DNA of 22,421 nt, from positions 1 through 22,421 of IMG/VR virus record IMGVR_UViG_3300022758_000225; one strand, given 5' to 3'. The translations under genes were made by a program, and so were the position numbers. Positions 5,971-22,421 of this stretch are shown here, piece after piece (the stretch's first letter is position 1; each line of letters starts with the position of its first letter). A model generated the notes under the pieces. It saw nothing but the letters and a program-made list of their open reading frames with translations. It did not search any database and was not told the DNA's origin. Source of the stretch: a virus. Its lineage: Duplodnaviria > Heunggongvirae > Uroviricota > Caudoviricetes.

Positions 5971-5990
5971 TAAAGAAATGTAATAAACGC

Positions 5991-6684: not shown

Positions 6685-6704
6685 CCCTTACCTCCTCATC
6701 AATT

Positions 6705-6726: not shown

Positions 6727-6739
6727 ATTACCCTTTAAA

Positions 6740-6792: not shown

Positions 6793-7222
6793 TCTTTCCA
6801 GACAAACAAACAAGGTACTAACAAAATTTGGTTGTAACACGGCGTATGGCACATGCGTCGTTAGCGGTCTGGGGACGTTAAAGGGGACAATCCACTCCTT
6901 GCTCGGGCAAACAAACCAGGTAGCCGGAATGTGCAAGTCAATGATGATGCTGATAAGACGCCTAACCAGCGTGGCGGTTCGGTTTGACACCTGGGAAGAG
7001 ACCAGGGTGCAACGATGAGGGCATTTATGGAACCGCGACAAAGTGTGGTGCCGTAACTGGCTAAGTGCTCTCAGCGTTGTGGTGAATGCGCAGGCTGATG
7101 CGCGAAAGACATTGCAGCTATTGCGGAAAAGAGCTGTTCGGCGGGGCAATTAAACGCCCGTGAGAGTCTGAAATAACCGCAAGCCGGAGATCAGCACCGG
7201 TCACCACAACAGCCACTGCTTT

Positions 7223-7270
7223 AGCGGTACCAGTTTGTACACTTGCTTCCGGCTGGTACCGCTCTTTTTT
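7223..7270 (+). terminator. intrinsic terminator in the early-left leader (tL-like)
   Basis: Perfect 11-bp stem agcggtaccag (7223-7233) / ctggtaccgct (7253-7263) with a 19-nt loop, followed by T6 at 7265-7270. Confidence 0.5.
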
Positions 7271-7407
7271 ACAAAACAGAGAAGAGCATCACCGGACGAC
7301 GGGCTCATAACCCAATCCATCCGGGCGGCTGCCACCGCAGGTGTTCTTCTCTGTTTTGTGGAGAAACCAACCGACCTTGCAGGGTCGATATGATGAGGAG
7401 CAGCAAA

Positions 7408-7770
7408 ATGGCTAGCGTACGCAGTACTGATGTGCAGGCATTTATCGGGGAGCTGGACGGCGGCGTATTTGAAACCAAAATCGGCGCTGTTCTCAGTGAA
7501 GTCGCTTCCGGTGTGATGAACACGAAAAACAAAGGTAAGGTCTCGCTCAACCTGGAAATCGAACCATTTGATGAGAACCGTGTGAAAATCAAACACAAAC
7601 TCTCATATGTTCGCCCGACTAACCGCGGGAAAATTTCCGAAGAAGACACCACCGAAACGCCGATGTATGTCAATCGCGGTGGTCGCCTGACTATTCTGCA
7701 GGAAGACCAGGGACAATTACTGACTCTTGCCGGTGAACCTGACGGAAAACTCCGCGCAGCAGGTCATTAA
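7408..7770 (+). CDS. hypothetical early-left protein (first gene after the leader; yfdP-like by position and size)
   Basis: ATG at 7408 preceded by GAGGAG at 7395-7400; 120 aa. No similarity to lambda N. Track ORF 7243..7770 is an upstream extension without an RBS. Confidence 0.5.
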   Translation: MASVRSTDVQAFIGELDGGVFETKIGAVLSEVASGVMNTKNKGKVSLNLEIEPFDENRVKIKHKLSYVRPTNRGKISEEDTTETPMYVNRGGRLTILQEDQGQLLTLAGEPDGKLRAAGH

Positions 7771-7835
7771 TATCGTTCTTAATTAACTGATTATTTATCT
7801 CATCACTGAATATCTTAATATAGTGAGGACTTATT

Positions 7836-8659
7836 ATGTCTCAGAACTTAGACGCAACCGCAATTAATCAAATCCATGCCCTTATTTCTGCTCAGGGTGT
7901 TAATGAAATTATCAGTAAGATTGGTGCCGATGCTGTGGCATTGCCTGAGAATTTCCGCATTCATGATCTGGAAAAATTTAATTTAAATCGCTTCCGTTTC
8001 CGTGGTGCGCTTTCCACTGCCAGCATCGATGACTTTACCCGTTATTCTAAAGATCTTGCAGATGAAGGCACCCGCTGCTTTATCGATGCCGATAATATGC
8101 GAGCCATCAGTGTGCTTAACCTGGGTACTATTGATGAACCAGGTCACGCAGATAACACCGCCACTCTCAACTGAAAAAGACAGCACCGTTCTCTGCCCTG
8201 CTGTCTGTTAATGGCGAGCGTAACTCCCAGAAGTCACTGGCAGAATGGATTGAAGACTGGGCCGACTATCTTGTGGGCTTTGATGCTAATGGTGACGCTA
8301 TTAAGGCAACAAAAGCGGCTGCGGCAGTCCGTAAAATCACGATTGAAGCAAACCAGACCGCTGATTTTGAAGATAATGACTTCAGCGGCAAACGCTCTTT
8401 GATGGAGTCTGTCGAAGCGAAAACCAAAGACATTATGCCAGTAGCATTTGAGTTTAAATGCGTTCCGTTTGAAGGCCTGAAAGAACGTCCGTTTAAATTA
8501 CGCCTCAGCATTATCACTGGTGATCGTCCTGTACTGGTTCTGCGCATTATTCAGCTGGAAGCGGTGCAGGAAGAAATGGCTAACGAATTTCGTGATCTGC
8601 TTGTTGAGAAATTCAAAGACAGCAAAGTAGAAACCTTTATTGGTACTTTCACCGCCTGA
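7836..8659 (+). pseudogene. DUF2303-like (yfdQ-like) gene split by a frameshift
   Basis: N-part 7836..8174 (frame 0) stops at 8172-8174. The C-part frame is open from 8156 and continues to 8659 (track ORF begins at GTG 8273). The two frames overlap in 8156-8172; joined length is about 274 aa. Confidence 0.5.
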
Positions 8660-8786
8660 TTTCATTACTGCAAATGCCCCTGCGGGGGCATTTATGGAAA
8701 CGTAATTGACTCAATAATCGCCAGATGGTGAGGGCTTCCTTTTACCAGAATTCAGCGCGGTGCAGCGCATATACGTGGAGAACAAA

Positions 8787-9323
8787 ATGTCATTTATTAA
8801 AACTTTTTCCGGGAAGCATTTTTATTATGACAGGATAAATAAAGACGACATCGTTATTAACGATATCGCGGTTTCTCTTTCAAATATCTGTCGCTTTGCA
8901 GGACATCTTTCACATTTCTACAGCGTCGCCCAACATGCGGTGCTTTGCAGCCAACTGGTACCGCAGGAATTTGCTTTTGAAGCGTTAATGCATGATGCAA
9001 CAGAAGCGTATTGCCAGGACATCCCGGCGCCACTGAAACGCCTTCTTCCTGACTATAAACGGATGGAAGAAAAAATAGACGCCGTAATCCGTGAGAAATA
9101 CGGGTTACCACCAGTTATGAGTACACCCGTGAAATATGCCGATCTCATCATGCTGGCAACCGAACGTCGCGATCTCGGGCTTGATGATGGCTCTTTCTGG
9201 CCTGTACTGGAAGGCATCCCGGCAACAGAGATGTTCAACGTGATTCCACTGGCTCCGAGCCATGCCTACGGGATGTTTATGGAACGTTTTAACGAGTTAT
9301 CGGAGTTACGCAAATGCGCATGA
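8787..9323 (+). CDS. HD-domain phosphohydrolase (yfdR-like)
   Basis: His-Asp motif in EALMHDATEAYCQDIP plus HLSHFYSVAQH. ATG at 8787 preceded by GGAG gives 178 aa; the track ORF starts at 8760. Confidence 0.65.
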   Translation: MSFIKTFSGKHFYYDRINKDDIVINDIAVSLSNICRFAGHLSHFYSVAQHAVLCSQLVPQEFAFEALMHDATEAYCQDIPAPLKRLLPDYKRMEEKIDAVIREKYGLPPVMSTPVKYADLIMLATERRDLGLDDGSFWPVLEGIPATEMFNVIPLAPSHAYGMFMERFNELSELRKCA

Positions 9324-9730
9324 ATGTTTTCGAAATGGAAGGGTTTCTTCGCGGGAAATGTGTACCACGAGATCTGAAAGTGAATGAAACAAATGCTGAG
9401 TATCTGGTGCGTAAATTTGCTGAAGCGGAGGCCAAGTGCGCGGCGCTGGCGGCGGAGAATGAGCTGGCTCGTAAAGCTGTTCAGGCATTCTGTGAGGTTG
9501 TTGGCGACAACACTGAGATTATCTCCGTGTTGGTTGGGCGAGATGGCGTTCTGGTTATTTTGGAGGCCATGAAGGCAACAGGAAATATGTCAGCCACCGA
9601 CGCTTTCCTGGCTGAAGTACGTGCGCAGGGTGTTGAATTGTTGCGCGAGCATCCTGCTATCCAGATTTGCTCTTTAACGCACGTATGCGACGAGTTCGCC
9701 GCCCAGCTTCGTAAAGGAGGCAACCAGTGA
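9314..9730 (+). CDS. hypothetical protein
   Basis: 138-aa ORF. ATG at 9314 preceded by GGAG; overlaps the HD gene stop by 10 nt. Confidence 0.45.
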   Translation: MRMNVFEMEGFLRGKCVPRDLKVNETNAEYLVRKFAEAEAKCAALAAENELARKAVQAFCEVVGDNTEIISVLVGRDGVLVILEAMKATGNMSATDAFLAEVRAQGVELLREHPAIQICSLTHVCDEFAAQLRKGGNQ

Positions 9731-10026
9731 CTGTATGTCTTATTGATAAACGTCGACGTGGGCAACAAATACCATCTGTTGAAATGCCGAATCACACATG
9801 GTTTTGCGTACTTGATATCGATGGTATGGATACGTTGATCGACACTCGTCATTACTGCGATACCGCAACAGCTACTCCGGCGAAAGCAAAGAAAATGGCT
9901 GCTCTGATAGAAAACTGGACTCCACCTGATGGTTGGTGCAATGGGAATGATCGGGATTGGCATGAAAAAATGAAGAGCTATATCTGCGATTTCTTACGTA
10001 AATGCAACGGATTCAGGGTGATGTGA
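9727..10026 (+). CDS. hypothetical Cys-rich small protein
   Basis: 99 aa. GTG start overlapping the upstream stop as GTGA, preceded by a strong AGGAGG at 9713-9718. Confidence 0.45.
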   Translation: MTVCLIDKRRRGQQIPSVEMPNHTWFCVLDIDGMDTLIDTRHYCDTATATPAKAKKMAALIENWTPPDGWCNGNDRDWHEKMKSYICDFLRKCNGFRVM

Positions 10027-10027
10027 C

Positions 10028-10564
10028 ATGAGCAATATTGACTATCAGGCACTGCGTGAGGCGGCAGAACGTGCAATTCCGGCAATGGAACGCCTGTTAA
10101 TGTTGCCAGCTGATGATGATTTGTTAAGTGAACAGGAACTTAAAGATTACGGTGTGGATATTGATGCGCTCAACGCCTTCAAATTTCTGAACGGACCAGA
10201 AACCGTGCTGGCACTGCTGGATGAACGGGAAAGAAACCAGCAATACATCAAACGCCGTGACCAGGAGAACGAGGATATTGCGCTTACGGTTGGGAAGCTG
10301 CTCGTTGAGCTTGAAGCAGCAAAATCAAAACTCAACGAGCAGCGCGAGTATTACGAGGGAGTTATCTCTGATGGGTGCAAGCGTATTGCTGAACTGGAAG
10401 CGCGGGAAGTTCAATTACCGACTCGCTACGACCTTCGATATGGACACCCGATAAATGCAGATGAGCGACATGTCATGATACCTAAAGAAAATGGCAGTTG
10501 GCTTTACCTGATTGACCTGGAACACGCATTACGCGTCGCTGACATTCGCATCAAAGGAGAGTGA
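10028..10564 (+). CDS. Ead/Ea22-like early protein
   Basis: 178 aa. N-terminus MSNIDYQALREAAERA and a coiled-coil-like middle section resemble Ea22-like proteins of lambdoid early-left regions, from recall only. Confidence 0.45.
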   Translation: MSNIDYQALREAAERAIPAMERLLMLPADDDLLSEQELKDYGVDIDALNAFKFLNGPETVLALLDERERNQQYIKRRDQENEDIALTVGKLLVELEAAKSKLNEQREYYEGVISDGCKRIAELEAREVQLPTRYDLRYGHPINADERHVMIPKENGSWLYLIDLEHALRVADIRIKGE

Positions 10565-10565
10565 T

Positions 10566-10829
10566 ATGGCAACTTTGACAAAAAAAGAACAAGCATGGTT
10601 GAGCGAATTACAGGACGTTCTTGATCGCTGCCCATCACCGAAAAAAATTGGTTTTTACACCATTGGCGATAAAAGCATTTACCTGTATGACCTGCGCCGC
10701 ATGGATGAAATCATGGAGGCTCTTGATAATCGTTCGTCAATGGATTGGTGTGTTGCTGTTCATGATATGAATGCCGGATTTGATGAAAAGATTTTATTCC
10801 CCTCATCAGTTGAAAGTACAGCAGGATAA
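10566..10829 (+). CDS. hypothetical protein
   Basis: ATG at 10566 two nt after the upstream stop, preceded by AAAGGAGAG; 87 aa. The track ORF extends upstream to 10512. Confidence 0.45.
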   Translation: MATLTKKEQAWLSELQDVLDRCPSPKKIGFYTIGDKSIYLYDLRRMDEIMEALDNRSSMDWCVAVHDMNAGFDEKILFPSSVESTAG

Positions 10830-10839
10830 GGACTAACAC

Positions 10840-11412
10840 ATGACCACTATTACCAAAGAGCGACTGCTGACAATCAGGCAGTGGCGCGAAACATACGGAC
10901 CTGGTAGCAACGTTGTACTGCCAGCAGAAGAAGCGGAAGAACTGGCACGAATTGCTCTGGCATCGCTGGAAGCAGAACCTGTAAGCCAAACTTACAACTT
11001 GCCACAAACGCACTTTGAACAGGTTGCTGACCTTTACGAAATGCAATTTGATGACGGACGCACTTGTGCCTTTCATACTGATGCGCAAAAGGCTGCGCAA
11101 TGGCTTCGGGCATGCGACGGAAACAGGGTTCAGGAATACGTGAAACTGGAGCGACTGCAGAACGCGCTATCGGGCAACTCTCCGGTAATTCCGGATAGTT
11201 GGATAAGCTGTAGTGAGCGAATGCCGGAAAAGAATCAGAACGTGCTTATTTCGGTGAATTTCGATAGCTCTCTGGTTGAACCGCTAATATGCTCCGCACG
11301 CTATACCGGAAGCACCTTTCGGCGCGGAGATGCAACGATTAAGCCGGGTAATGGTATTGAGCAGGCAACCCACTGGATGAAATTACCGGAACCACCGCAG
11401 GAGGTGAAGTGA
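10840..11412 (+). CDS. DUF551-domain protein
   Basis: C-terminal WISCSERMP...THWMKLPEPP matches the DUF551 signature common in lambdoid prophages. Confidence 0.6.
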   Translation: MTTITKERLLTIRQWRETYGPGSNVVLPAEEAEELARIALASLEAEPVSQTYNLPQTHFEQVADLYEMQFDDGRTCAFHTDAQKAAQWLRACDGNRVQEYVKLERLQNALSGNSPVIPDSWISCSERMPEKNQNVLISVNFDSSLVEPLICSARYTGSTFRRGDATIKPGNGIEQATHWMKLPEPPQEVK

Positions 11413-11984
11413 TGAACAACTTAATGATCGACCTTGAGACGATGGGGAAAAATAAGGATGCACCGATCGTTTCCATTGGCGCGGTGTTCTTCACTCCAGA
11501 AACCGGAGACATCGGACAAGAATTCTATACGGTTGTTAGCCTGGAAAGTGCTATGGGGCAAGGAGCTACACCTGACGGCGATACCATCCTGTGGTGGTTG
11601 AAACAAAGCCCTGAAGCACGAGCTGCAATCTGTATTGATGATACTTTGTCGATCAGCGATGCTCTCTCAGAACTAAATCATTTCATTAACCGGCACGCAG
11701 CCAATACGAAATATTTAAAAGTCTGGGGTAACGGGGCCACCTTCGACAACGTAATTTTACGTGGAGCTTATGAGCGAGCAGGACAAATCTGCCCGTGGGC
11801 ATACTGGAATGACCACGATGTACGCACGATCGTTACGCTTGGGCGTTCCATCGGATTCGACCCCAAAATGGACATGCCTTTCGATGGCGAACGGCACAAC
11901 GCCCTGGCTGATGCTCGTCATCAGGCAAAATATGTTTCCGCTATCTGGCAGAAATTAATTCCTGCCACCAGCACAGAATTATGA
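11412..11984 (+). CDS. DnaQ-like 3'-5' exonuclease (DEDDh family)
   Basis: MIDLETMG (Exo I motif) and ERHNALADARHQ (Exo III H-x4-D motif). AGGAGG at 11399-11404. Confidence 0.65.
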   Translation: MNNLMIDLETMGKNKDAPIVSIGAVFFTPETGDIGQEFYTVVSLESAMGQGATPDGDTILWWLKQSPEARAAICIDDTLSISDALSELNHFINRHAANTKYLKVWGNGATFDNVILRGAYERAGQICPWAYWNDHDVRTIVTLGRSIGFDPKMDMPFDGERHNALADARHQAKYVSAIWQKLIPATSTEL

Positions 11985-12020
11985 TTTTCCCGGGTGCAGC
12001 CGGTTTTGATGGAGAAAATT

Positions 12021-12302
12021 ATGAACACCTTGTTTTTACTGATGGCTGAATTCAATACCCCTAACATTGAACTCTCAGCAGTTAGCCAAAAGTACTTTGG
12101 CATGAGTCCAGCCACGGCAGAAGCAAAAGCAAACGCTTGTAAGTTGCCCGTTCCAACATATCGCATCGGCACATCACAAAAAGCAAAACGTTGCATCAAT
12201 ATTCAGGATCTTGCGGAATACATAGACAAAAGACGAGAAGAAGGACGTATCGAGTGGGAACAGGTCAGAACAGGCAAACAGAAGGGCAAAGAACATCACT
12301 AA
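12021..12302 (+). CDS. PrtN-family DNA-binding protein (pyocin-activator / excisionase-like)
   Basis: MNTLFLLMAEFN...IQDLAEYIDKRR closely resembles the N-terminus of P. aeruginosa PrtN. ATG at 12021 preceded by GGAG. Confidence 0.6.
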   Translation: MNTLFLLMAEFNTPNIELSAVSQKYFGMSPATAEAKANACKLPVPTYRIGTSQKAKRCINIQDLAEYIDKRREEGRIEWEQVRTGKQKGKEHH

Positions 12303-12304
12303 AG

Positions 12305-12331
12305 AAAAAACCCGCCTAAAGGCGGGTTTTC
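12305..12331. terminator. bidirectional intrinsic terminator
   Basis: aaaaaaCCCGCCtaaaGGCGGGtttt: GC-rich stem flanked by an A-run and a T-run, between convergent genes ending at 12302 and 12350. Confidence 0.6.
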
Positions 12332-12349
12332 AAAAAGCACCAGCTATGA

Positions 12350-12523
12350 TCATGCTGCTTTGCGACGACGAAGCTTACCCTGCTGCTCTTTACCAGAGAC
12401 AGTAGCGTGAGTGAACGCATTAGGAGCAGCCTTCATCAGAACTTCAACAGCAGCACCCATACCTGCGAATGCTTTCATTGTGTCGAACTTAACCTGTGGC
12501 TTGGTTGCTTTTTGATCTTTCAT
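12350..12523 (-). CDS. small lysine-rich hypothetical protein (57 aa; not in the supplied ORF track)
   Basis: Hand translation of the minus strand gives MKDQKATKPQVKFDTMKAFAGMGAAVEVLMKAAPNAFTHATVSGKEQQGKLRRRKAA. ATG at 12523 preceded by GGGAG at a 7-nt spacing. Confidence 0.4.
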   Translation of the reverse strand: MKDQKATKPQVKFDTMKAFAGMGAAVEVLMKAAPNAFTHATVSGKEQQGKLRRRKAA

Positions 12524-12719
12524 AGAAAACTCCCGAGACAGTAAAGGCGTCTCTAACCCTCTCTTTAAAGCTAGCTTGTTTAGCTAACTTATGCCAATCG
12601 ATCATGTCGATTGGTGACATCGTTTCTTAGTAGTTTAAGCACAAAACGACTGCCATAGATGTACCTTTAAGGTAATCTGGACGGGTATCCTACAATTTGT
12701 AGACCCTTCTCGTCTATAC

Positions 12720-13256
12720 CTACTGAGCAAATTTAAGAAAGATATCCTGCAGCTCATCAATGACTGCAGACATCACATAACCGCACTGTTCCATGCGGAA
12801 ACCAAAAGACTCGTAATACTGCACCAGTTCTGGTACTGGCTCTACAATGTGGACAACTTTACATTCAACAGCTTTACAAAATATAAAAGCACTCATAAGA
12901 GTGAGTAAAACCATGCGCCCTTTCAATGGGTGAGATTCATCTTCTCTAGAAAACCTTTCGATCATATGGATACGAAAGATGTTTTCTTCAACCCCATAAA
13001 CACAAATTGCTGCTCCTGATGGTATTCCCTGAACCCGACCTTGCTGAACAAGTTTTATGCAGAACTCATACTTTTCTCTGGAGTTGCCATAGGTGCTTAA
13101 CGCATAGTCCCATTCAAGCTCACCATAGCCACCACACAGAATCTTGTAATCATCATCACTGAGCGGACCAACAGCAAGAGGTAAGCCGACATGATCAATA
13201 ATCAACTGGATATTGTTACGTACAGATTGACCTATCTCGTCTAGGGTAAGCATCAT
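12720..13256 (-). CDS. GNAT-like acetyltransferase-fold protein (moron candidate)
   Basis: 178 aa. KGRMVLLTLMS and ELVQYYESFGF resemble GNAT motifs A and B. Opposite strand to its neighbours and visibly AT-rich. Fold call is tentative. Confidence 0.45.
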   Translation of the reverse strand: MMLTLDEIGQSVRNNIQLIIDHVGLPLAVGPLSDDDYKILCGGYGELEWDYALSTYGNSREKYEFCIKLVQQGRVQGIPSGAAICVYGVEENIFRIHMIERFSREDESHPLKGRMVLLTLMSAFIFCKAVECKVVHIVEPVPELVQYYESFGFRMEQCGYVMSAVIDELQDIFLKFAQ

Positions 13257-13536
13257 AGACTCTCAAGCGGAACACTAAAAATCTCATTATATCTCATTCT
13301 GATGCCCCGCATGGATTACACCTTGAAATGAAAACACCGGGTTCCCAATAGGCTCCCACAAAGTGTATAACTACTTGTTTTTCAAAAACGGTACATCCTA
13401 TCGAGCATAGGAGCAATGCTAAACCGAGAACTCCAGTAAGCGCCAGTTTTTTCAGGCATCACGCTGGTTTGATTAGTTTTCTGTATTTCAGGATTATCGT
13501 GCATTTTTGAACATTTCAGGCTATTTTTCTCGCGTT

Positions 13537-13572
13537 AGGTTCCCGCACAGGTTCCCACGTTTTATGGGAACC
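13537..13572. promoter_or_regulatory. repeated GGTTCCC motifs upstream of the integrase gene (candidate arm-type or regulator binding sites)
   Basis: AGGTTCCC at 13537-13544 and 13549-13556; inverted copy GGGAACC at 13566-13572, forming TTCCCA-N7-TGGGAA. Related GGTTCCCA and GGCTCCCA copies at 13340-13347 and 13351-13358. Confidence 0.35.
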
Positions 13573-13592
13573 CGAAATAACGAGGTCGTGTA

Positions 13593-14690
13593 ATGGCGTA
13601 CTATAACATAGAGAAACGACTAAAATCCGATGGCACACCACGCTATCGCTGTAATGTGATTATCAAAGAAAAAGGTGTTATCACTTACAGGGAAAGCAAA
13701 ACATTCCCTAAACATGCTCATGCCAAAACATGGGGCGCACAGAAAGTGATGGAATTAGATCTATATGGCATTCCATCATCAAATGCTGTTGATGGACTTA
13801 CAGTCCGTGACTTACTACACAAATATTTAAATGACCCAAATGCCGGAGGTAAAGCAGGCCGTACTAAAAGATATGTGCTGGAACTGCTTATGGATAGTGA
13901 CATATCCGCGATCAAACTATCTGAACTGACAGAAAATGACGTAATTGAACATTGCAGGCTAAGAAACAACGCTGGTGCAGGCCCAGCAACAGTCAGCCAC
14001 GATGTTAGTTATCTTGGCAGTGTTCTGGATGCGGCAAAACCTGTATACGGAATCAATTACACATCAAACCCGGCGAAAAGCGCTCGTCCATATCTACTTA
14101 AACTCGGTTTGATTGGTAAATCAAACCGTCGTAATCGTAGACCAGCATCTGATGAACTGGACATGCTCATTGAAGGCCTTCAACAACGATCTACTCATAA
14201 ATGCTCAAAAATTCCGTTCGTTGATATCCTCAAATTTTCTGTGTGGTCCTGTATGCGAATCGGAGAAGTATGCCGGTTACGATGGGAAGATCTCGACCAA
14301 GAACAAAAATCTATACTAGTAAGAGATAGGAAAGATCCACGTAAAAAGGAAGGTAACCATATGAAAGTTGCCTTGCTTGGGGAAGCCTGGGATATCGTCC
14401 AGCGCCAACCCAAAAAATCAGAATTCATTTTTCCATATAACAGCACTTCTGTTACCGCAGGATTTCAGAGGGTAAGAAGCAAATTAGGTATTAAAGATCT
14501 GCGATACCATGATTTGCGTAGAGAAGGGGCAAGTCGCTTATTTGAGGCTGGTTTTAGTATTGAGGAAGTCGCTCAAGTTACAGGGCATCGTTCATTAAAC
14601 GTGCTATGGCAGGTATATACCGAACTGTATCCGAAATCTTTACATAATCGTTTTGAAGAACTCCAAAAGAGCAGAAACAAGACCTCTTGA
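13593..14690 (+). CDS. int: tyrosine site-specific integrase
   Basis: 365 aa with C-terminal catalytic signature YHDLRREGASRLFEAGFSIEEVAQVTGHRSLNVLWQVYTEL (HxxR and Tyr nucleophile). RBS GAGG. Confidence 0.9.
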   Translation: MAYYNIEKRLKSDGTPRYRCNVIIKEKGVITYRESKTFPKHAHAKTWGAQKVMELDLYGIPSSNAVDGLTVRDLLHKYLNDPNAGGKAGRTKRYVLELLMDSDISAIKLSELTENDVIEHCRLRNNAGAGPATVSHDVSYLGSVLDAAKPVYGINYTSNPAKSARPYLLKLGLIGKSNRRNRRPASDELDMLIEGLQQRSTHKCSKIPFVDILKFSVWSCMRIGEVCRLRWEDLDQEQKSILVRDRKDPRKKEGNHMKVALLGEAWDIVQRQPKKSEFIFPYNSTSVTAGFQRVRSKLGIKDLRYHDLRREGASRLFEAGFSIEEVAQVTGHRSLNVLWQVYTELYPKSLHNRFEELQKSRNKTS

Positions 14691-14692
14691 CA

Positions 14693-14736
14693 CTGTTTAT
14701 TTATACAGATAAAAATAACACTGTATACAAACACAG
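14693..14736. promoter_or_regulatory. two tandem LexA (SOS) boxes upstream of the dinI-like gene
   Basis: CTGTttatttatACAG (14693-14708) and CTGTatacaaacACAG (14721-14736); both match CTGT-N8-ACAG exactly and lie 16-60 nt upstream of the ATG at 14752. Confidence 0.7.
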
Positions 14737-14751
14737 TATAGAGGGATTTTT

Positions 14752-15000
14752 ATGCGTATTGAAATCTGCATAGCCAAAGAGAAAATGACTAAAATGCCAA
14801 ACGGTGCTGTGGATGCGTTAAAGGAAGAATTAACTCGGCGCATCAGTAAGCGTTATGACGATGTAGAAGTGATCGTAAAAGCCACCAGCAATGATGGGCT
14901 TTCTGTTACACGCACAGCAGATAAGGATTCTGCAAAAACATTTGTTCAGGAGACTCTGAAAGATACCTGGGAGTCTGCTGACGAGTGGTTTGTTCACTAA
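14752..15000 (+). CDS. DinI-like DNA-damage-inducible protein
   Basis: 82 aa; [11 protein letters not shown]...[16 protein letters not shown] matches the E. coli DinI family along its length. RBS GAGGGA. Confidence 0.85.
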
Positions 15001-15068
15001 TAAACACGTAAAATCGGTAACGGCTGGAAATCATTCAATACCCGCACTATCGAAAGTTCACCAGCCAA

Positions 15069-15112
15069 CCGCAGCACGTCCTGCATACGTCGTGTCTGCG
15101 GTTTTTCTTTTT
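15069..15112 (+). terminator. intrinsic terminator downstream of int and dinI (tI/sib-like position)
   Basis: Stem ccgcagcacg / cgtgtctgcgg with one bulge, followed by TTTTTcTTTTT. Confidence 0.45.
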
Positions 15113-15253
15113 CGCTTACATTGTGTCTGGTTCTTCCGGCCACTCAATATCAGGTGCAGTTGATGTATCAACACGGTTCAGCAACACCCTGCATGCCTTC
15201 CATGCCGCCAGCAATGATGTTTCCTCCTTCGTTGCATATACTGCTCACCTTTT

Positions 15254-15547
15254 TCACCCACGATTAACCAACAGCCAGATCAGCAGACACGCCACCACCG
15301 GCACAGCAAAATCCATCAGACTTGCCATATCCCACACGCGCGGGTCAAAACCACCCCACCACGGCATATTCATACGCTTGCCATGCCCGAACATTTCAAT
15401 CCAGCGATATTCTGCCTGGGTGTGTTCCCGCGCAATGAAGAACGTACAACCGGCTATCGCCCCGTAAGCCCAGTTTCCGGTAAAAAGACCAGCCAGTACC
15501 TGCACCGCTACGGCACAAAGCGCATGAAGTATCGACGTGATATCCAT
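15254..15547 (-). CDS. small hydrophobic (membrane) protein, moron candidate
   Basis: 97 aa with hydrophobic N- and C-terminal segments (LHALCAVAVQVLAGLF and FAVPVVACLLIWLLV). Last gene of the tail operon direction. Confidence 0.45.
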   Translation of the reverse strand: MDITSILHALCAVAVQVLAGLFTGNWAYGAIAGCTFFIAREHTQAEYRWIEMFGHGKRMNMPWWGGFDPRVWDMASLMDFAVPVVACLLIWLLVNRG

Positions 15548-15556
15548 CTGCTATCC

Positions 15557-15835
15557 TTAAAACCACTCCCTGAGCGGGCGCTCTGGTGTAACCACCCACT
15601 CACGGAACACGGAATCATCAAATCCATCGTCAAGAAGACGGATATTAACAAAGTACCCTTCGTTTCGCGTGTATTCTGGTTCTCCGTCATCAGGAACATC
15701 TGTCTCCCTGAACGTAAAACCAATCTCATCAACCAGAACGGCATTCTGCAGCTCTTCGTCCTCTTCCCAGTTAAGTTTCCTGAGAAATGCCCTGAAATCT
15801 GCTTTATCACTGAAACGCAACGTGAAATCTCTCAC
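15557..15835 (-). CDS. hypothetical acidic protein downstream of the tail fibre gene
   Basis: 92 aa. Start overlaps the stf stop as ATGA. No resemblance to lambda Tfa. Confidence 0.45.
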   Translation of the reverse strand: MRDFTLRFSDKADFRAFLRKLNWEEDEELQNAVLVDEIGFTFRETDVPDDGEPEYTRNEGYFVNIRLLDDGFDDSVFREWVVTPERPLREWF

Positions 15836-17895
15836 TCCACAACCTCCCCAAGCTGCGCATCTGTTAGCTCTTTATGCCAGAGACGAAAATTCCTCACATG
15901 CCCAAATAAATGGCGTAATCCTGCTGTAGTTTGTCCACCAATGCGAATGGTTGCTGTACTCCGGATATATTCCCATGTGGTTTTTGTTTCGCTGGATATA
16001 CGCCCGTTACTTACTGCACATGTAGACTGATCTGACTTTACACGCATCCCCATAACCATTTTTTTCAACGATGCGTTTTCGTTAACACGCCTATTTGATC
16101 CACCAATATCGCAATAAGGAAATCCGTCTGGCCCATCTGCCGAAGATCCGAAGCCAAGAATAATAGCCGCTCCGGTTTGATGACCGCCGGTATCAAAAAC
16201 ACGTGGCGCTGCATTTGGCGTTTTATACCAGTTCTTATGTACCTCACAAAGAACCGTAAAAGGAAGATTATAAAGATTATTATTAATTGGAACTGTAACT
16301 ATATCGCTTGCGCGGGTAGCCGCCGTCGTTCCTGAGATAATAAAAGATGATGCACACGAACCATCCTCAACCTGAGGGGTGGCCAGATAAATATAGTCTC
16401 CAGATACGGTTGCTCCGCCCTGATTAGGAGAATACTGTATCTGAGATCCTATTTTTAACTCATCATCAATTGCCAGGATTGTTGCCTCTGCAAAAATCCA
16501 TCCGGTAGCTTCGTCCTTTCTGACTCTCGCTGTAATCCTTGAGGCCGCGCCACCTGTCATATTAATTTCAAGCGTTTGTGTATCAATATATGCATCACCA
16601 AGAAAAGTTGTTGCACTACCGTCATATTTATCAAAGCGGATACGCAACCTTACCTGTCGTTCTGTTTTAAAACGACATGAGGTTGTCACGTACTTGTTAT
16701 CGCCTGAAACATCAACTGACTTTGTAGCAGCAATTGATGCCATATTAATGGCTGACGTTTGCCCAATCAGAGAATCGTTACAAACAAACTTTCCATAAGT
16801 AAAACCAAAACTATCAGTTCCAACCTCAGCGACATTCATATTTGCAGATTTACCCCAAGAAGCTGGAGTTGCTGAATTCAACATGTAGTTGGTTCGCTGA
16901 CCTTCAATCAATAAACCTTCTTTTTCAAATCGTGGCTCATTAATTTCCGCCGTTTTCAGTTCGCCAGATTTGTTGATATATGTTGCCGTTGATGCGCGAC
17001 TGAAATTAACCTGTTTATCACTGGCAACCTGAACCACATTATCACCAATCTTCACTTTTTTATAACCCGGAGAATAGCCCGTAATCATATCCAGCGAATC
17101 ATTAAAGGGTATCCACACATCCGGCAGCGGCTGTAAAACATATCTGTACGGCTCTGCTGTCTGGTTTGCGTATTCTCTGGCAGCATCTTCACTTGCTTTT
17201 GCTGCCGTCTGGCTTGCTGCCGATGCTTTCGCCGAGTTCGCCGCCGCTGTTTCGCTCACCTTTGCGTTGGCTTCACTGTCTTTGGCATTCGTCTCACTGG
17301 TTTTCGCTGCCGTCTGGCTGGATTTTGCGTTTTTTTCGCTGGCCTTTGTGGCTGTCTCGCTATTTTTCGCGCTGGTTTCTGATTTTTTGGCTGCTGTCGC
17401 GGAGTTTGCCGATGCAGTCTGCGAGGCCGCTGCCGCCTGTGCGCTGTTAGCTGCATTCGTTTCTGAGGTTTTCGCCGCATTCTTCGATGAGGCTGCTGCC
17501 GTTTCGGATTTCTTTGCCGCCGCTGCACTCTGTGATGACGCTCCGGCATGACGTGCCACTTCATTCACCATCAGCTCAAAACGGCGCAGTGCCTCCGGAC
17601 GGGCATCATCCTCCGTCATGGCACCGAGAAAATCATTCAGCGTACCTGGTCTGGAACCTTCATAGACGGTAATGGTCCCGGCATGTGAAGGTGGAAAACC
17701 TTCAACCAGCAGGGTGACGCTGTACTGGCCATACTCAACATCCATGCTGTAACGCCCGGCTTCATCCGGATTTTCTGAGGCCACCGTGTTCACCACCACC
17801 GTGGTGCTGTTACGTTTTGCTTTCAGCTGGATTGTGCAGTTCTGTACCGGTTTACCTGCACCGTCTTTCAGTACACCTGAAATCTTTACTGCCAT
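15832..17895 (-). CDS. stf: side tail fibre protein (lambda Stf-like N-terminus, A/S/T-rich repeat stalk, lectin-like C-terminal domain)
   Basis: N-terminus MAVKISGVLKDGAGKPVQNCTIQLKA...GFPPSHAGTITVYE matches lambda Stf. C-terminus GHVRNFRLWHKELTDAQLGEV resembles the end of concanavalin-A/LamG-type domains. ATG at 17895 with a GGGGTGA SD. Confidence 0.8.
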   Translation of the reverse strand: MAVKISGVLKDGAGKPVQNCTIQLKAKRNSTTVVVNTVASENPDEAGRYSMDVEYGQYSVTLLVEGFPPSHAGTITVYEGSRPGTLNDFLGAMTEDDARPEALRRFELMVNEVARHAGASSQSAAAAKKSETAAASSKNAAKTSETNAANSAQAAAASQTASANSATAAKKSETSAKNSETATKASEKNAKSSQTAAKTSETNAKDSEANAKVSETAAANSAKASAASQTAAKASEDAAREYANQTAEPYRYVLQPLPDVWIPFNDSLDMITGYSPGYKKVKIGDNVVQVASDKQVNFSRASTATYINKSGELKTAEINEPRFEKEGLLIEGQRTNYMLNSATPASWGKSANMNVAEVGTDSFGFTYGKFVCNDSLIGQTSAINMASIAATKSVDVSGDNKYVTTSCRFKTERQVRLRIRFDKYDGSATTFLGDAYIDTQTLEINMTGGAASRITARVRKDEATGWIFAEATILAIDDELKIGSQIQYSPNQGGATVSGDYIYLATPQVEDGSCASSFIISGTTAATRASDIVTVPINNNLYNLPFTVLCEVHKNWYKTPNAAPRVFDTGGHQTGAAIILGFGSSADGPDGFPYCDIGGSNRRVNENASLKKMVMGMRVKSDQSTCAVSNGRISSETKTTWEYIRSTATIRIGGQTTAGLRHLFGHVRNFRLWHKELTDAQLGEVVE
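17180..17560. repeat. imperfect tandem repeats encoding the Ala/Ser/Thr/Lys-rich stalk of Stf
   Basis: Repeated gctgccg / ttcgc / ttttcgc units on the plus strand, translating to KxSETxAxNS-type repeats. They generate spurious ORFs on both strands. Confidence 0.5.
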
Positions 17896-17906
17896 ATTCA
17901 CCCCAC

Positions 17907-17932
17907 AAAAAAGCCCGCCTGAACCGGCGGGC
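17907..17932 (-). terminator. intrinsic terminator downstream of lom
   Basis: Minus strand reads GCCCGCC-ggttca-GGCGGGC followed by TTTTTT, ending just upstream of the stf SD. Confidence 0.5.
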
Positions 17933-17959
17933 TGTCATAACACTGTGTTACCTGGCTAA

Positions 17960-18559
17960 TCAGAACTTATAACCGACACCCACGATGAACCCGTCAGTGC
18001 GCCAGTTGCCACTGCCGGAGCCTTCATAAGCGACATCAACGGCCACGGATTCGGTCGGGTTAAACTGCACGCCAGCTCCCCACGCCAGAGAGGTGTTACT
18101 GTGGCGAGCGTCATCACTTCCGGTCAGCACGTCGTGCGTTTTTCCCTTGTTGTCAGTTACGCGGAGATAATCCCCGGAAAAAGTCGACACACGGCTGTAA
18201 GCCACGCCTGCCATCGCATACGCGCTGAACCATTCATTCACGCGTACAGACGGCCCCGCCATCACGCTGAACCAGCGGTTACGCACGGAATCCTCATGCC
18301 AGCGGGTATCGCTGTAATGCGTTTTTTGCTCATCTTCAGCGTTGGCATAACTGAATGACGTAATCAGCCCCAGCGTGTCCGTAAACTCATAACGGTATTT
18401 CACGTTAATCCCGTTCAGATTATCGCTGCCGGGAGCGTTCGTACGGGCATGAAGATACCCTGCGCTCAGTGTGGCCTGCTGCTCAGACGCCCATGCAGGC
18501 GCACCGGATACGGCCAGACAGATGGCTGCGGACAAAATGGCTGCACAAACTTTACGCAT
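17960..18559 (-). CDS. lom: outer-membrane protein Lom (Ail/Lom family)
   Basis: 199 aa with signal peptide; GINVKYRYE and C-terminal AYEGSGSGNWRTDGFIVGVGYKF match lambda Lom. Confidence 0.85.
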   Translation of the reverse strand: MRKVCAAILSAAICLAVSGAPAWASEQQATLSAGYLHARTNAPGSDNLNGINVKYRYEFTDTLGLITSFSYANAEDEQKTHYSDTRWHEDSVRNRWFSVMAGPSVRVNEWFSAYAMAGVAYSRVSTFSGDYLRVTDNKGKTHDVLTGSDDARHSNTSLAWGAGVQFNPTESVAVDVAYEGSGSGNWRTDGFIVGVGYKF

Positions 18560-18583
18560 AATTACCTCTCGCTTTTCTGCAAT

Positions 18584-18607
18584 AAAAAAGGCGCCAGAAA
18601 TGGCGCC
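18584..18607 (-). terminator. intrinsic terminator between J and lom
   Basis: Minus strand reads GGCGCC-atttct-GGCGCC followed by TTTTTT. Consistent with lom being a separately expressed moron. Confidence 0.5.
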
Positions 18608-18627
18608 CGCATATGGGTTATGAAAAT

Positions 18628-21600
18628 TCAGCTAATCGTGATACCTGCTGTGGATTTCTTCATCACCACAACCAGCAAATCACTGATACTGGCTGTGGGA
18701 TACCAGTCATTTACCAGCCACGCTGATACCGAAAACTCCAGCGTCATGTGACCGCGACCAGCAGGCATATCAATAACACCTGTATAAACCAGCGTATTAT
18801 CCAGCGCGGTACGGTTATAAATTTCAGCACCGTTTTTCTTCACTATCAGGCGGCATGACGAATAAATATCGTTATTCTCCCGCTCATGTTTAGCGCCACG
18901 AAACGCCACCGCGGGAATAACAATCTGCCGGTTAAACGGCTGATCGTCATAAACCCTGACGGTAATGGTTCCTGATGGCCAACGCTTCGGTGCACGGGAG
19001 TCACGGGGGAAAGCCTTACCCACTGTTTTAACGAGATCGCCTTCAATCTGGTTTGCAGACAGTTTCCCTCTGATGACACAGTTCTCGTTAATGGTGACAT
19101 TATTGAGCGTGCCGGTATTCGCCGTGATGGCTCCACTGATATCCGCATTGCGGGCTGTCAGCCTGCCATCCGGCGTCAGGGAAAACGTCGGAGGATTGCC
19201 GGATGACGTGATGCTCACCGCAAACAGTCGCTTCAGGAACACGTCGTTCATGAACAGCTGATTCCCCTGCGCCACAAACAGCGGCGTGGTGTTGCCGTTC
19301 TCCGGGGTAATCATCGCAATGCGATCGGCCTGCAGCAGAATGTTACTCAGGGTCTGATCATCAACATCCTCAATCCCCGCGCCAATCCCGGCCACATAGG
19401 GAATACCGTTTTTGTTTCTGCACCTTCAGCATATACATGGCATTCAGCTCATTGCGCGTGTCTGACTGAACCCGCTGGATTTGCTGTATGGTCACGGCCT
19501 GGTCACCCAGCTTTTTATCCGTGGTCGAGGTAATTTCACTCCCTTTTTTATCCACGTACTGGCGGACCTGTGCTATCTGTCGGGCGTTTTCTGACTGCCC
19601 CTGGCTGACAGTCTGTGAGATTTCACTGCTCACCCGGTCCACTTTCTGGCTCACCTGCGCGATGGCCAGTGTCTGGTCCTCATTCTTTTTCGCAACCAGC
19701 TGCGTGAGGCTGTTTTCCGCCTTCCCGATTTTCCGGGTCACTTCTGCGATATCCGTGTCCATCCGCTGACGGATATCTTCTTCCAGTTGCGTGACCTCCG
19801 TACGCAGCGCTGAAGCATCAATGCGCTCTTTCAGTGCCTGACCCAGAAGCGTCTCATCTATCAGCCCCCCGGAAAATTTCCAGATACCCTTCACCATCAT
19901 TGCTGGGCTGCCCGCTGGCTTCCACAAAAGCAGATTTCCCCACCAGGTTGACGCTGCGCACGTAAAACCAGAAATCCGTCCCCGGCTTAATCCGGCTCCC
20001 CTGGACAGTCCACTGACTGCCGGTCCCCAGATAACGGGCAGATTTTCCACCTGTGCTGTGTTCGTGATGCGTTTTTCTGAGAACCAGAATTCAAACTGTA
20101 CCGTCGGGTCATACACCGCAAGACGCGGGACCGCCGTTATCTGAAAATACCCCGGCGTCAGCTCAATCCGAGACGGCGCTGCCGGTGCGGCAATCCGGAA
20201 CGATACCGATGCCGGATCGCCCTGCTGCCCCCACGCATTTACTGCCCGGACTGTCAGCGTGTACCGCCCCAGCGCCAGTTGCGTGAAGCGGTATGTGGTT
20301 TCCGTCGTCCGGGCCGTGCTGACCAGCCGCTCACTGCCGTCATCCGCTGCCACGGTCAGGCGAAGCATAAAGCTCACGCCCTTCACCACCTTCGGCGTGT
20401 CCCAGCGCGCCAGCACCTGATATTCCCCGCTGTCTGCGGTAACTTCGGCGGTCAGGTGCTGCACCGCTGGCGGCGTGACACCATTCACCGTGCCGCTCTG
20501 GTCGCCGTCAAAGTGCGCCCCGTTATCCACGATGGCCTCTTTTGCCGGTACATGCTGTACGGCGGTGATGGCATACGTACCGTCGTCATTCTCACGGATA
20601 CTCACACAGCGGAACAGGCGCTGGCGCAGCGTCGGCAGCTTCAGCCCCCACACGCTGTATCCGGCAACGCCGTCAGGAACACGGCTCACTTTCACCTTCA
20701 CACCGTCGGTGACGGACTGGACCTCCACGCTCACCGGATTACCCTGCCCGTCAACCAGGCTTATCAGCGTGGTGCCGGAGGATGGCAGCGTGATTTCACG
20801 GTCGAGCGTCAGCGTCCGGGTCTGGCTGTTTACCGCCAGCACGCGCCCGCCGGTGCTGATACCGGCATAGTCATCATCGCAGATTTCAATGACATCGCCC
20901 GGTACATGGCGAAGCCCTTCGGCACCCACGCTGAAGTCCACGGTCTGCGTTTCCAGCAGTTCCGTTTTAATCAGCCACAGCCCGGCGCGGTGCGCCTGCC
21001 CCCGGCTGGTACAGCCAAAGGCATCCATCTTCGTGACGTTACGACCGTAACGGGCAATGGCCTGCGTATCTTCAACAAGCTCTGTCGCCGTCTCCCAGCC
21101 GTTATCCGGGTCAATCCAGTTCACCTCAACGGCATTATGGCGGTCCTTCAGGGCGCTGAAGCTGTAGCGGAACGGCGCGCCATCATCCGGCATCACCACA
21201 TTACTGCGGTTATAGGTCCACACCTTATCCGACGGTCGGTCCTGCACGAACGTCAGCGTCTGCCCGTTCCATACCGGCATACAGCGCATCGCCGAGCAGA
21301 AATCGCTGAGAACATCCCACGCCTTACGCTGTGTGGTCAGCCAGGCATTACAGGTGATGCGCGGCTCCGTGCCGCCAAAGCCGTCCGGCACTGACTGGTC
21401 GCAGTACTGGCCGATGACATACAGCGCCCATTTATCCACATCCGCCGCACCAAGACGTTTCCCCATGCCGTAGCGCGGATGGGTCAGCATATCCCACAGA
21501 CACCAGGCCATGTTGTTGCTGTATGCTGGCTTAAACGTTCCGTCCCAGATACCGCTGTATTGCCGCGTCTGCGGGTTATAATTCGACGGCACCTGCAGAA

Positions 21601-22324
21601 TACGCCCGCGAAGATGATAATTACGGCTCACCTGCTGGCTGCCGAACTGTTCCGAGTCCACCTGTACGCCGACCAGTGCCGTGTTCGGGTAGCACTGTTT
21701 CACATCGATGATTTCAGTGTATGACGACCAGAGCGTTTTGTTCTGCAGCTGGTCTGTGGTGCTGTCCGGCGTCATCCTGCGCATCCGGATGTTGAACGGG
21801 CGCGGCGGCAGGTTACCCACCACCACCGAGGCCAGATACTGCGAGGTGGTTTTGCCCTTAATGGTGATGTCTTTTTCCGTCACCCAGCCACCGTTACGCT
21901 GTATCTGAACCAGCAGGCGGACTTCCGACGGATTCCGGTCCCCCTTTGAGGTGGTTTCCACCAGTGCCTGCACACCGAAGGTAAAGCGCAGACGGTCAAT
22001 GTTTGCCGACGTGATGGTCCGGGTGATCGGCGTGTCATATTTCACTTCCGTACCCAGCACCGTCTCGGAGCCGGAGGATTCAAATCCCTCCGGCGGAGTC
22101 TGCTCCTGCTCACCTGCCCGGAACACCACCGTTACGCCGGAGATGTTGGTATTCCCCTCACTGTCCAGCACCGGTGTACTGTTCAGCAGCACGCTTTTTA
22201 AGCCATCCACCGGACCTTCAACCGGCCCTTCACTGATGGCATCGATCACACTCAGCAACTGCGTGGACTTCAGATTGTCCTTCGCTTCGCGCGGGGTATG
22301 CCCCTTACTGCTGCCTTTACCCAT
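18628..22324 (-). pseudogene. J: tail tip / host-specificity protein J, interrupted by single-base frameshifts
   Basis: The first ~800 aa of ORF 19370..22324 are near-identical to lambda J. The segment encoded 20046->19870 is out of frame; the alternative frame gives KSARYLGT...YVRSVN...GKSAFVE...GEGYL, matching J. ORF 18628..19395 carries the J C-terminus. Breaks at T4 20043-20046, C6 19865-19870 and T5 19409-19413. Confidence 0.8.
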
Positions 22325-22384
22325 TCGTCATGCTCCATAAACGACAAAACCGCCCGGAGGCGGTTTCACATAAAATATTTTGCA

Positions 22385-22421
22385 TCATCGACCAATCATC
22401 ACAACCTGACCACCATCCCCA
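22385..22421 (-). CDS. 3' end of the upstream tail gene (I-like position), partial
   Basis: Open minus-strand frame running off the window edge, stopping at 22385-22387 about 60 nt upstream of the J start. Identity not verifiable from 12 codons. Confidence 0.25.
   Translation of the reverse strand, partial: GDGGQVVMIGR

What the first reader, a model, noticed from the sequence alone, without database searches (positions are those of the whole stretch)
15254..17895. Stf with lectin-like C-terminal domain, no Tfa chaperone, two small unknown genes instead
The tail fibre keeps a lambda Stf-like N-terminus but has a long A/S/T/K-rich repeat stalk and a C-terminus ending in a motif typical of ConA/LamG-type lectin domains. 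No lambda-type tail-fibre assembly gene follows. Instead there is an ATGA-coupled 92-aa acidic protein and a 97-aa hydrophobic protein, which could be a fibre chaperone and a membrane-located exclusion or conversion factor.
Basis: partly seen in the sequence, partly recalled or inferred. Interest (0 to 1): 0.45.

Follow-up and report, generated by a model that had tools for sequence, protein, structure and literature searches.

The report
Phage-21-type lectin-headed side tail fibre cassette
This is a common, already catalogued but functionally untested tail-fibre cassette of E. coli lambda-like phages: a fibre ending in a sugar-binding-type head, its small partner protein, and an unrelated small membrane protein.

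Summary
The 92-aa gene overlaps the stf stop as GTGA, not ATGA. A 42-codon 3' relic of lambda tfa lies directly after the 97-aa gene.

- **Spread.** The same three genes occur in phage 21 and in about 576 of 5,426 complete E. coli genomes.
- **92-aa acidic protein.** It follows the module in every enterobacterial phage group examined and in two of three distant metagenomic relatives. It is most likely the module's dedicated accessory protein. It is not Tfa-like and has no significant fold match.
- **97-aa protein.** It is a conserved small membrane protein. Full-length copies were seen only in temperate phages, and it is independent of the fibre type.
- **Prior notice.** Lectin-like heads on homologous fibres were noted in two 2025 papers.

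Verdict: an ordinary member of a known kind. The small partner protein is the one open question.

The parts
15832..17895 (-). stf, side tail fibre gene (687 aa from ATG 17895; the mechanical ORF starts at GTG 17901)
   Evidence: ORF list and translation. PHROG 1419 tail protein, E=0. 99% identical to RefSeq WP_001552192.1, 'prophage tail fiber N-terminal domain-containing protein'.
17542..17895 (-). Stf residues 1-118: lambda-Stf-type N-terminal virion-attachment domain
   Evidence: Pfam PF08400, E=1.3e-68. PDB 9e7m lambda tail fibre fragment, E=5.9e-50. BLASTP against lambda orf-401.
17146..17571 (-). Stf residues 109-250: A/S/T/K-rich stalk with heptad periodicity (inferred coiled coil)
   Evidence: Composition and 7-residue spacing of SE[TK]NA-type motifs. 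Low-complexity similarity to the lambda Stf stalk. No DNA tandem repeat.
15835..17139 (-). Stf residues 253-687: portable C-terminal receptor-binding module, predicted as ConA-like beta-sandwich domains
16276..16977 (-). Approximately Stf residues 307-540: domain homologous to the RcGTA head spike fibre (approximate boundaries; hypervariable core at about residues 340-512)
   Evidence: NCBIfam NF048003 GTA_spike_fiber, 54.4 bits against a cut-off of 36. Profile search against PDB: Rcc01080 E=1.5e-42, 9occ gp17, 9b45 gp46, 8env gp45. Mosaic identity profile.
15835..16275 (-). Approximately Stf residues 541-687: LamG/pentraxin-like domain (basic, pI 9.1; second hypervariable patch at about residues 572-658)
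   Evidence: Profile search against PDB: 4qvs E=2.5e-6, C-reactive protein E=1.3e-3, BoNT Hc. 33 of 50 homologues hit Pfam Laminin_G_3. pI. Mosaic identity profile.
15557..15835 (-). orf92: 92-aa acidic protein (pI 4.26) with a GTG start overlapping the stf stop (GTGA); conserved syntenic partner of the module
15254..15547 (-). orf97: 97-aa small membrane protein with 2-3 hydrophobic segments and an AAGGA ribosome-binding site 9 nt after orf92
   Evidence: PHROG 1443, E=6e-58. Hydropathy. Homologues in lambdoids, a P22-like phage and phiHAP-1. dN/dS 0.1-0.25.
15116..15244 (-). 3' relic of a lambda-type tail fibre assembly gene (42 codons plus stop, no start codon)
   Evidence: Translation. 86% identity to lambda Tfa residues 156-191. 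RefSeq pseudogene annotation in strain N56. Present after orf97 in many related contigs.
17912..17933 (-). Terminator-like hairpin between lom and stf
   Evidence: Consensus scan. A terminator is annotated at the same place in phage 21. Function not tested.

Best explanation
The locus is the phage-21-type side tail fibre cassette of a lambda-like temperate coliphage.

Stf keeps the lambda N-terminal anchor and a heptad stalk that is probably a trimeric coiled coil. Its distal half has been replaced by a 435-aa portable module predicted as ConA-like beta-sandwich domains. One part is homologous to the capsule-binding head spike fibre of the Rhodobacter gene transfer agent. The other is LamG/pentraxin-like.

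Inferred mechanism:
- Each fibre ends in lectin-type heads that bind a surface polysaccharide (O-antigen, capsule or a similar glycan). This would be the first, reversible step of adsorption, before J engages its terminal receptor.
- The heads are globular beta-sandwiches predicted with high confidence as single chains, not an interdigitated trimeric tip. They therefore do not need a lambda-type Tfa. The ancestral tfa was lost when the module was recombined in, leaving only its conserved 3' end.
- The translationally coupled 92-aa acidic protein is the module's dedicated, co-inherited accessory protein. Most likely it is an assembly or stabilising factor, or a stoichiometric tip subunit.
- The 97-aa protein does not belong to the fibre module. 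It is a conserved small membrane protein of temperate phages carried at the cargo position after tail-fibre or tailspike genes, most likely acting at the host envelope (exclusion or surface modification).

Shown: the gene anatomy, homologies, fold, synteny and selection. Inferred: glycan binding, the absence of a chaperone requirement, and the roles of both small proteins.
For: - Anatomy and homology of Stf.
- Glycan binding of a homologue: the RcGTA head spike fibre binds capsular polysaccharide experimentally and sits as a single subunit on its base (PMC7296036, PMC10218006).
- Homologous fibres of BASEL phages were described with a 'galectin-like domain' (IrisVonRoten Gp22, PMC11990801) and a 'lectin-like head D69' that the authors say cryo-EM confirmed (EmilHeitz RBP_10, PMC12143355).
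- Two hypervariable patches lie inside the two domains, as expected for receptor-contact surfaces.
- Tfa loss: relic only. No intact tfa in the 99%-identical N56 prophage. The virulent phages examined carry the module with no lambda-type Tfa annotated next to it.
- orf92 partnership: 206 phage records carry it against 226 with the module, and it was directly downstream, often overlapping, in all 14 annotated phage records inspected, spanning lambdoids, Drexlerviridae, Dhillonvirus, Queuovirinae, T5-like and rV5-like phages. It is retained next to module genes only 30-33% identical. It is kept under purifying selection in lambdoids that lack a distal fibre. Its charge (pI 4.3) is complementary to domain 2 (pI 9.1).
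- orf97 independence: about 91% identical even where the module is only 43% identical. It also sits after a P22-like tailspike and after the phiHAP-1 tfa. It is absent from the virulent carriers of the module that were inspected.
Against: - No binding, assembly or localisation data exist for this cassette.
- The oligomeric arrangement of the heads could not be modelled.
- One distant module gene (L099) has no small gene after it.
- orf97 has no promoter-like site of its own, so it may be expressed late with the fibre rather than from the lysogen.
- Tfa supplied in trans by other prophages of the host cannot be excluded for lysogens.
Confidence: 0.6

Rival explanations
1. orf92 is not a chaperone but a docking adaptor, or branch-point subunit, that lets a second distal fibre plug onto the lectin head. 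In this phage the distal fibre gene is missing, so orf92 is a leftover or serves only as a cap.
For: In Drexlerviridae, Dhillonvirus, Queuovirinae, most T5-like phages and some lambdoids (HannyBb), orf92 is followed within about 10 nt by a fibre gene. Its N-terminus carries a conserved plug motif, M.T.T.IP.DI[TK].LK. The BASEL authors model the IrisVonRoten distal T-shaped fibre as attaching to the module-bearing proximal fibre (PMC11990801).
Against: orf92 is retained, with purifying selection, in all 80 window-type and phage-21-type lambdoid contigs and in rV5-like phages that have no plug-bearing gene. In IME178 the distal fibre lacks the plug motif although orf92 is present.
Confidence: 0.2
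2. The C-terminal module is an enzyme (a glycanase or depolymerase of the ConA-like glucanase type) that degrades a surface polysaccharide, rather than a passive lectin.
Against: The best matches are non-catalytic carbohydrate-binding or lectin domains. The experimentally studied homologue binds capsule, and no activity was reported for it. The invariant residues lie in the N- and C-terminal parts of domain 1 that are also conserved in Rcc01080, so they may be structural.
Confidence: 0.1
3. The fibre still depends on a lambda-type Tfa, supplied in trans by another prophage of the host. The two small genes are unrelated cargo.
For: E. coli genomes typically carry several lambdoid prophages; the query region matches a median of 4 places per genome. 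A Tfa relic shows the ancestor used Tfa.
Against: Virulent phages of five other groups carry the same module with orf92 and no lambda-type Tfa next to it. The module shares nothing with the lambda Stf tip that Tfa serves. orf92 synteny extends to distant relatives.
Confidence: 0.05
4. orf97 acts in virion morphogenesis or late infection, for example as a membrane-associated assembly or lysis-timing factor expressed with the fibre, rather than as a lysogenic exclusion or conversion factor.
For: It lies 9 nt after orf92 with its own Shine-Dalgarno sequence and no promoter-like site upstream. In phiHAP-1 its homologue overlaps the end of the tail fibre assembly gene inside the tail operon.
Against: It is absent from all virulent phages examined that use the same fibre module. 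It is truncated in some otherwise similar prophages (L010 and L011). In a P22-like phage it occupies the slot between tailspike and int; from general knowledge, not tested here, P22 carries its O-antigen conversion genes in that slot.
Confidence: 0.2

Closest known systems
Side tail fibre cassette of Escherichia phage 21 (OL657228.1, CPT_21_22 to CPT_21_24)
   Same: Same three genes in the same order and spacing: stf with a lambda-like N-terminus and the module, a 92-aa protein overlapping the stf stop, and a 97-aa putative membrane protein.
   Different: A different allele: module 73% identical, orf92 64-65% with an ATG start, orf97 91%. In phage 21 the cassette is followed by sitABCD cargo rather than by the Tfa relic, DinI and int.
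Rhodobacter capsulatus GTA head spike fibre Rcc01080 (GhsB; PDB 6tb9 and related entries)
   Same: Clear homology to the first lectin domain: profile E=1.5e-42, and the NCBIfam GTA_spike_fiber domain is met. It is a glycan-binding adhesin on a phage-like particle.
   Different: It is a 325-aa protein present as a single subunit on a capsid pentamer base, not the tip of a tail fibre. The homology found here covers only the first domain. No orf92-type partner is known for it, and its gene neighbourhood was not examined here.
Lectin-headed lateral tail fibres of BASEL phages (IrisVonRoten Gp22 'galectin-like domain'; EmilHeitz RBP_10 'lectin-like head D69')
   Same: Homologous module at the fibre C-terminus: 63% identity for IrisVonRoten, and about 44-45% for the related rV5-like phages JeffSchatz and CarlMeissner. 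An orf92 homologue follows in both named phages.
   Different: Different virion anchors (T5-like and rV5-like N-termini). IrisVonRoten has a distal T-shaped fibre gene after orf92. The papers do not discuss the small protein.
Lambda Stf-Tfa system
   Same: Same N-terminal attachment domain and coiled-coil stalk, the same position after lom, and the same presumed role as an accessory adsorption fibre.
   Different: The distal half is unrelated (E=9.8). tfa is reduced to its last 42 codons. orf92 has no Pfam or NCBIfam family match at all, including any tail fibre assembly family.
Baseplate wedge proteins with the same domain (Pseudomonas phage Pa193 gp46, PDB 9b45; gp45 of PDB 8env)
   Different: There the domain is part of a baseplate or structural protein rather than the tip of a side fibre.

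Membership tests
Lambda-type side tail fibre (Stf) | N-terminal prophage tail fibre domain that anchors the fibre to the tail tip | tested here: met
   PF08400, E=1.3e-68. PDB 9e7m, E=5.9e-50. 76% identity to lambda Stf over residues 1-158.
Lambda-type side tail fibre (Stf) | Lambda-like distal tip (orf-314 part) served by an intact Tfa encoded downstream | tested here: not met
   No similarity to lambda orf-314 (E=9.8). Only a 42-codon tfa relic remains.
GTA head spike fibre domain (NCBIfam NF048003) | Score above the curated cut-off of the domain model | tested here: met
   54.4 bits against a cut-off of 36, Stf residues 331-531 of the 689-aa ORF. Rcc01080 E=1.7e-07 with the single sequence and 1.5e-42 with the profile.
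ConA-like lectin / LamG (Pfam PF13385 Laminin_G_3, clan level) | Sequence match to the Pfam model | tested here: inconclusive
   The window's own protein has no hit at E<=0.01. However, 33 of 50 aligned homologues hit PF13385, best E=1.9e-11.
ConA-like lectin / LamG (Pfam PF13385 Laminin_G_3, clan level) | Beta-sandwich jelly-roll fold of the superfamily | tested here: met
ConA-like lectin / LamG (Pfam PF13385 Laminin_G_3, clan level) | Carbohydrate binding | not testable with these tools
   Known only by analogy with the RcGTA head spike fibre.
Tail fibre assembly protein (Tfa) family, for orf92 | Sequence or fold relationship to Tfa-type chaperones | tested here: not met
Fibre accessory or chaperone gene in the functional sense, for orf92 | Encoded immediately after, and co-inherited with, the fibre tip it serves | tested here: met
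   Directly downstream, often overlapping, in the enterobacterial phage groups examined and in distant metagenomic loci.
Fibre accessory or chaperone gene in the functional sense, for orf92 | Physical interaction with the fibre and a requirement for its folding | not testable with these tools
Intramolecular-chaperone fibres (T5 pb1 / Peptidase_S74 type) | C-terminal S74 autoproteolytic chaperone domain | tested here: not met
   No PF13884 hit. The C-terminus is the LamG-like domain.
Known anti-phage defence or exclusion proteins, for orf97 | Match to a catalogued defence family | tested here: not met
   No PADLOC hit at E<=1. No Pfam or NCBIfam hit. PHROG 1443 is of unknown function.
Small integral membrane protein, for orf97 | Hydrophobic transmembrane segments | tested here: met
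   Kyte-Doolittle maxima above 2 at residues 5-24 and 76-95. The phage 21 annotators report 2 TMDs.

The most novel reading that the evidence does not exclude
The orf92 family may be a previously unrecognised class of tail-fibre accessory protein, unrelated to Tfa, gp38 or gp57. It would universally accompany ConA-like 'lectin-head' fibres in enterobacterial phages of at least six lineages and in distant metagenomic relatives. Together with the head it may form a plug-in hub that either caps the fibre (as here) or accepts a second fibre through the conserved N-terminal plug M.T.T.IP.DI[TK].LK. That would be a general, transferable mechanism for building branched receptor-binding fibres.
Probability: 0.3. 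Interest if true: 0.55.

Novelty: new member of a known kind. Interest (0 to 1): 0.3.

Why it matters
This cassette is one of the commonest side-fibre types of E. coli lambdoid prophages. It occurs in about 10% of complete genomes, including ExPEC and neonatal meningitis strains. The same head module equips T5-like, rV5-like and small siphoviruses that are studied for therapy.

Three practical gains would follow from resolving it:
- Knowing that the head is a portable lectin module with two hypervariable patches gives rational swap points for host-range engineering.
- Knowing whether the 92-aa partner must travel with the module decides whether such chimeras will fold.
- Knowing what the 97-aa membrane protein does could reveal another small prophage-encoded envelope factor.

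None of this is conceptually new. The locus itself is ordinary.

Tried and rejected
- Tandem Repeats Finder on the stalk found no DNA repeats. The periodicity exists only at protein level.
- Single-sequence searches of orf92 and orf97 against solved structures gave only chance-level hits.
- PADLOC gave no hit for either small protein.
A narrower alignment of database proteins was used instead.
- The search for related loci with the orf92 alignment returned only close lambdoid relatives. These were useful for synteny and dN/dS but not for diversity.
- I tested whether orf92 co-varies with the module's hypervariable patches. It appeared to within lambdoids, but HannyBb and IrisVonRoten break the pattern, so that is linkage rather than proven co-evolution.
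- I checked whether DT57C LtfA/LtfB or its LtfC explain the system. DT57C LtfA ends in an S74 chaperone domain, and LtfC is the collar protein, so it is a different architecture.
- rV5 virion proteomics and the lambda-chimera delivery paper contain nothing on this module or on orf92.
- A literature search for phage 21 side tail fibre found nothing.
- The apparent J pseudogene was rejected as a probable sequencing artefact.
Full report
**Context**

The window is the circular (excised or packaged) form of a lambda-like temperate phage. Positions 1-13417 match the right end of a 40.6-kb prophage integrated at dusA in E. coli N56, PMV-1 and relatives. Positions 13401-22420 match its left end. Identity is 99-99.9%, and a 17-bp overlap marks the att core. 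On the minus strand the order is J, lom, stf, orf92, orf97 and a tfa relic. A DinI-like gene and int follow on the plus strand.

**The observation**

- Stf residues 1-158 are 76% identical to lambda Stf, and nearly identical over the first ~118. The N-terminus matches Pfam PF08400 (E=1.3e-68) and the solved lambda fragment 9e7m.
- Residues 109-250 are 33% Ala, 17% Ser, 11% Lys and 10% Thr. SE[TK]NA-type motifs are spaced by multiples of seven, which suggests a coiled-coil stalk. There is no DNA-level repeat.
- orf92 is acidic, with pI 4.26.
- orf97 has two strong hydrophobic segments and a weaker third.

Two details need correcting. In this window the coupling is GTGA; the ATGA form belongs to the phage-21-type allele. 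Directly after orf97 lies a 42-codon relic that is 86% identical to lambda Tfa residues 156-191. RefSeq annotates it as a tail fiber assembly pseudogene.

**What the Stf C-terminus is**

Pfam finds nothing beyond the N-terminus. NCBIfam places the GTA_spike_fiber domain on residues 331-531 at 54 bits, against a cut-off of 36.

A profile built from 50 diverse homologues was searched against the PDB.
- The first half matched the Rhodobacter GTA head spike fibre Rcc01080 (E=1.5e-42) and the phage structural proteins 9occ gp17, 9b45 gp46 and 8env gp45.
- The second half matched an S-layer-domain protein (4qvs, E=2.5e-6), pentraxins (E about 1e-3) and botulinum toxin Hc domains.

Thirty-three of the 50 homologues hit Pfam Laminin_G_3, although the window's copy does not. 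The module has no similarity to the lambda Stf tip. The lectin-like reading is therefore supported at fold level and by transitive homology.

The experimentally studied relative, the RcGTA head spike fibre, binds capsular polysaccharide and is present as a single subunit per spike.

**How common and how modular**

- The 2.9-kb region is at least 80% covered in 576 of 5,426 complete E. coli genomes.
- It occurs in many isolated lambdoids, including classical phage 21, where the same three genes are annotated as side tail fiber, hypothetical protein and putative membrane protein.
- The 435-aa module always sits at the very C-terminus. It is joined to many unrelated N-termini, including lambda-Stf-like and tail-collar types, and also occurs as a module-only protein. 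It has 2,904 clusters at 50% identity.
- Internally it is mosaic. The first ~90 residues, an inter-domain stretch and the last ~30 residues are conserved. Two hypervariable patches lie one in each domain.

Homologous fibres have already been described as carrying a 'galectin-like domain' (IrisVonRoten Gp22) and a 'lectin-like head' whose replacement the authors say cryo-EM confirmed (EmilHeitz RBP_10).

**orf92**

A tblastn search finds the module in 226 phage records and orf92 in 206. In all 14 annotated phage records inspected, orf92 starts within a few bases of the fibre stop. These cover lambdoids, Drexlerviridae, Dhillonvirus, Queuovirinae, T5-like and rV5-like phages. The same arrangement holds in all 80 related IMG/VR contigs.

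The association persists at distance.
- Next to a module gene only 33% identical, a 100-aa protein matches the orf92 profile end to end (E=1e-11).
- A second distant locus gives a weak match (E=1.5e-3).
- A third distant locus has no small gene.

In most virulent carriers, and in some lambdoids such as HannyBb, a third gene follows. It encodes a distal fibre with a conserved N-terminal plug, M.T.T.IP.DI[TK].LK. That gene is absent from the window and from all 80 related contigs, yet orf92 is retained there. I therefore favour a dedicated assembly or tip-accessory role over a pure docking-adaptor role. Neither is shown.

**orf97**

orf97 behaves differently from orf92.
- It stays about 91% identical while the module varies from 43 to 100%.
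- It is absent from the virulent carriers that were inspected.
- It recurs after the tailspike of a P22-like phage, just before int, and after the tail fibre assembly gene of Halomonas phage phiHAP-1.
- It is under strong purifying selection, with dN/dS 0.1-0.25, but it is truncated in some prophages.
- It matches no Pfam, NCBIfam or PADLOC family, and it has no promoter-like site of its own.

An envelope-directed role such as exclusion or surface modification is plausible but untested.

**Origin of the arrangement**

The Tfa relic shows that the module, orf92 and orf97 replaced the distal stf and most of tfa by recombination, leaving only the 3' end of tfa. In a sister prophage, a methyltransferase-like cargo gene sits between two such relics. 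The complete N56 prophage has no intact tfa.

**Verdict**

The finding is real and the lectin call is right. The locus is an ordinary, widespread member of a known fibre type whose head domain has been noticed before. The one open point is the function of the conserved 92-aa partner protein.

Noticed in passing
window 13401-13417 (junction region 13257-13592): The window joins the right end of the dusA-integrated N56/PMV-1 prophage to its left end (int). A 17-bp segment is shared by both alignments, which is the expected att core. The sequence therefore comes from an excised or circular phage genome, or from a particle assembly, not from the integrated prophage.
   Followed up: partly
window 18622-20042 (J region), plus 10 sites in 469-8168: Compared with the 99-99.9% identical N56 prophage, almost all indels are single-base length changes at the edge of short homopolymer runs. 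Positions 1-13417 have 10 indels against only 3 mismatches. These indels split J into ORFs 19370-22324 and 18628-19395, so the J 'pseudogene' is most likely a sequencing artefact.
   Followed up: yes
window 15116-15244 (-): A 42-codon relic of the 3' end of lambda-type tfa lies directly after orf97. Related contigs carry one or two such relics, apparently as recombination joints for cargo.
   Followed up: yes
L011 3630-4298 (-), between tfa relics at 3447-3563 and 4505-4621: In a sister prophage with the same int, a 222-aa methyltransferase-like gene is inserted between two Tfa C-terminal relics, and orf97 is truncated to 73 aa.
   Followed up: partly
L003 26630-27804 (N56 prophage, outside the window): The near-identical prophage encodes a scabin-related ADP-ribosyltransferase and a subtilase-family AB5 toxin B subunit between the Q gene and the lysis genes. 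This looks like a pertussis-like AB5 toxin cargo.
   Followed up: no
L004, L006-L009, L090, L092, L094 (gene after the orf92 homologue): The distal fibre or other proteins encoded right after orf92 in several phage families share the N-terminal motif M.T.T.IP.DI[TK].LK while being otherwise unrelated. This is probably a common docking plug.
   Followed up: partly
L097 2373-5246; L100 4001-7313: In distant metagenomic relatives the lectin module is a free-standing protein of about 425-500 aa. It occurs as two tandem paralogues followed by a single orf92-like gene.
   Followed up: partly
window 12720-13256 (-): A 178-aa ORF of unknown function with no Pfam hit sits in low-GC DNA next to attP. 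It is conserved in the N56 prophage as a hypothetical protein.
   Followed up: no
window 14752-15000 (+): A DinI-like gene lies between int and the tfa relic, on the strand opposite to the tail genes.
   Followed up: no
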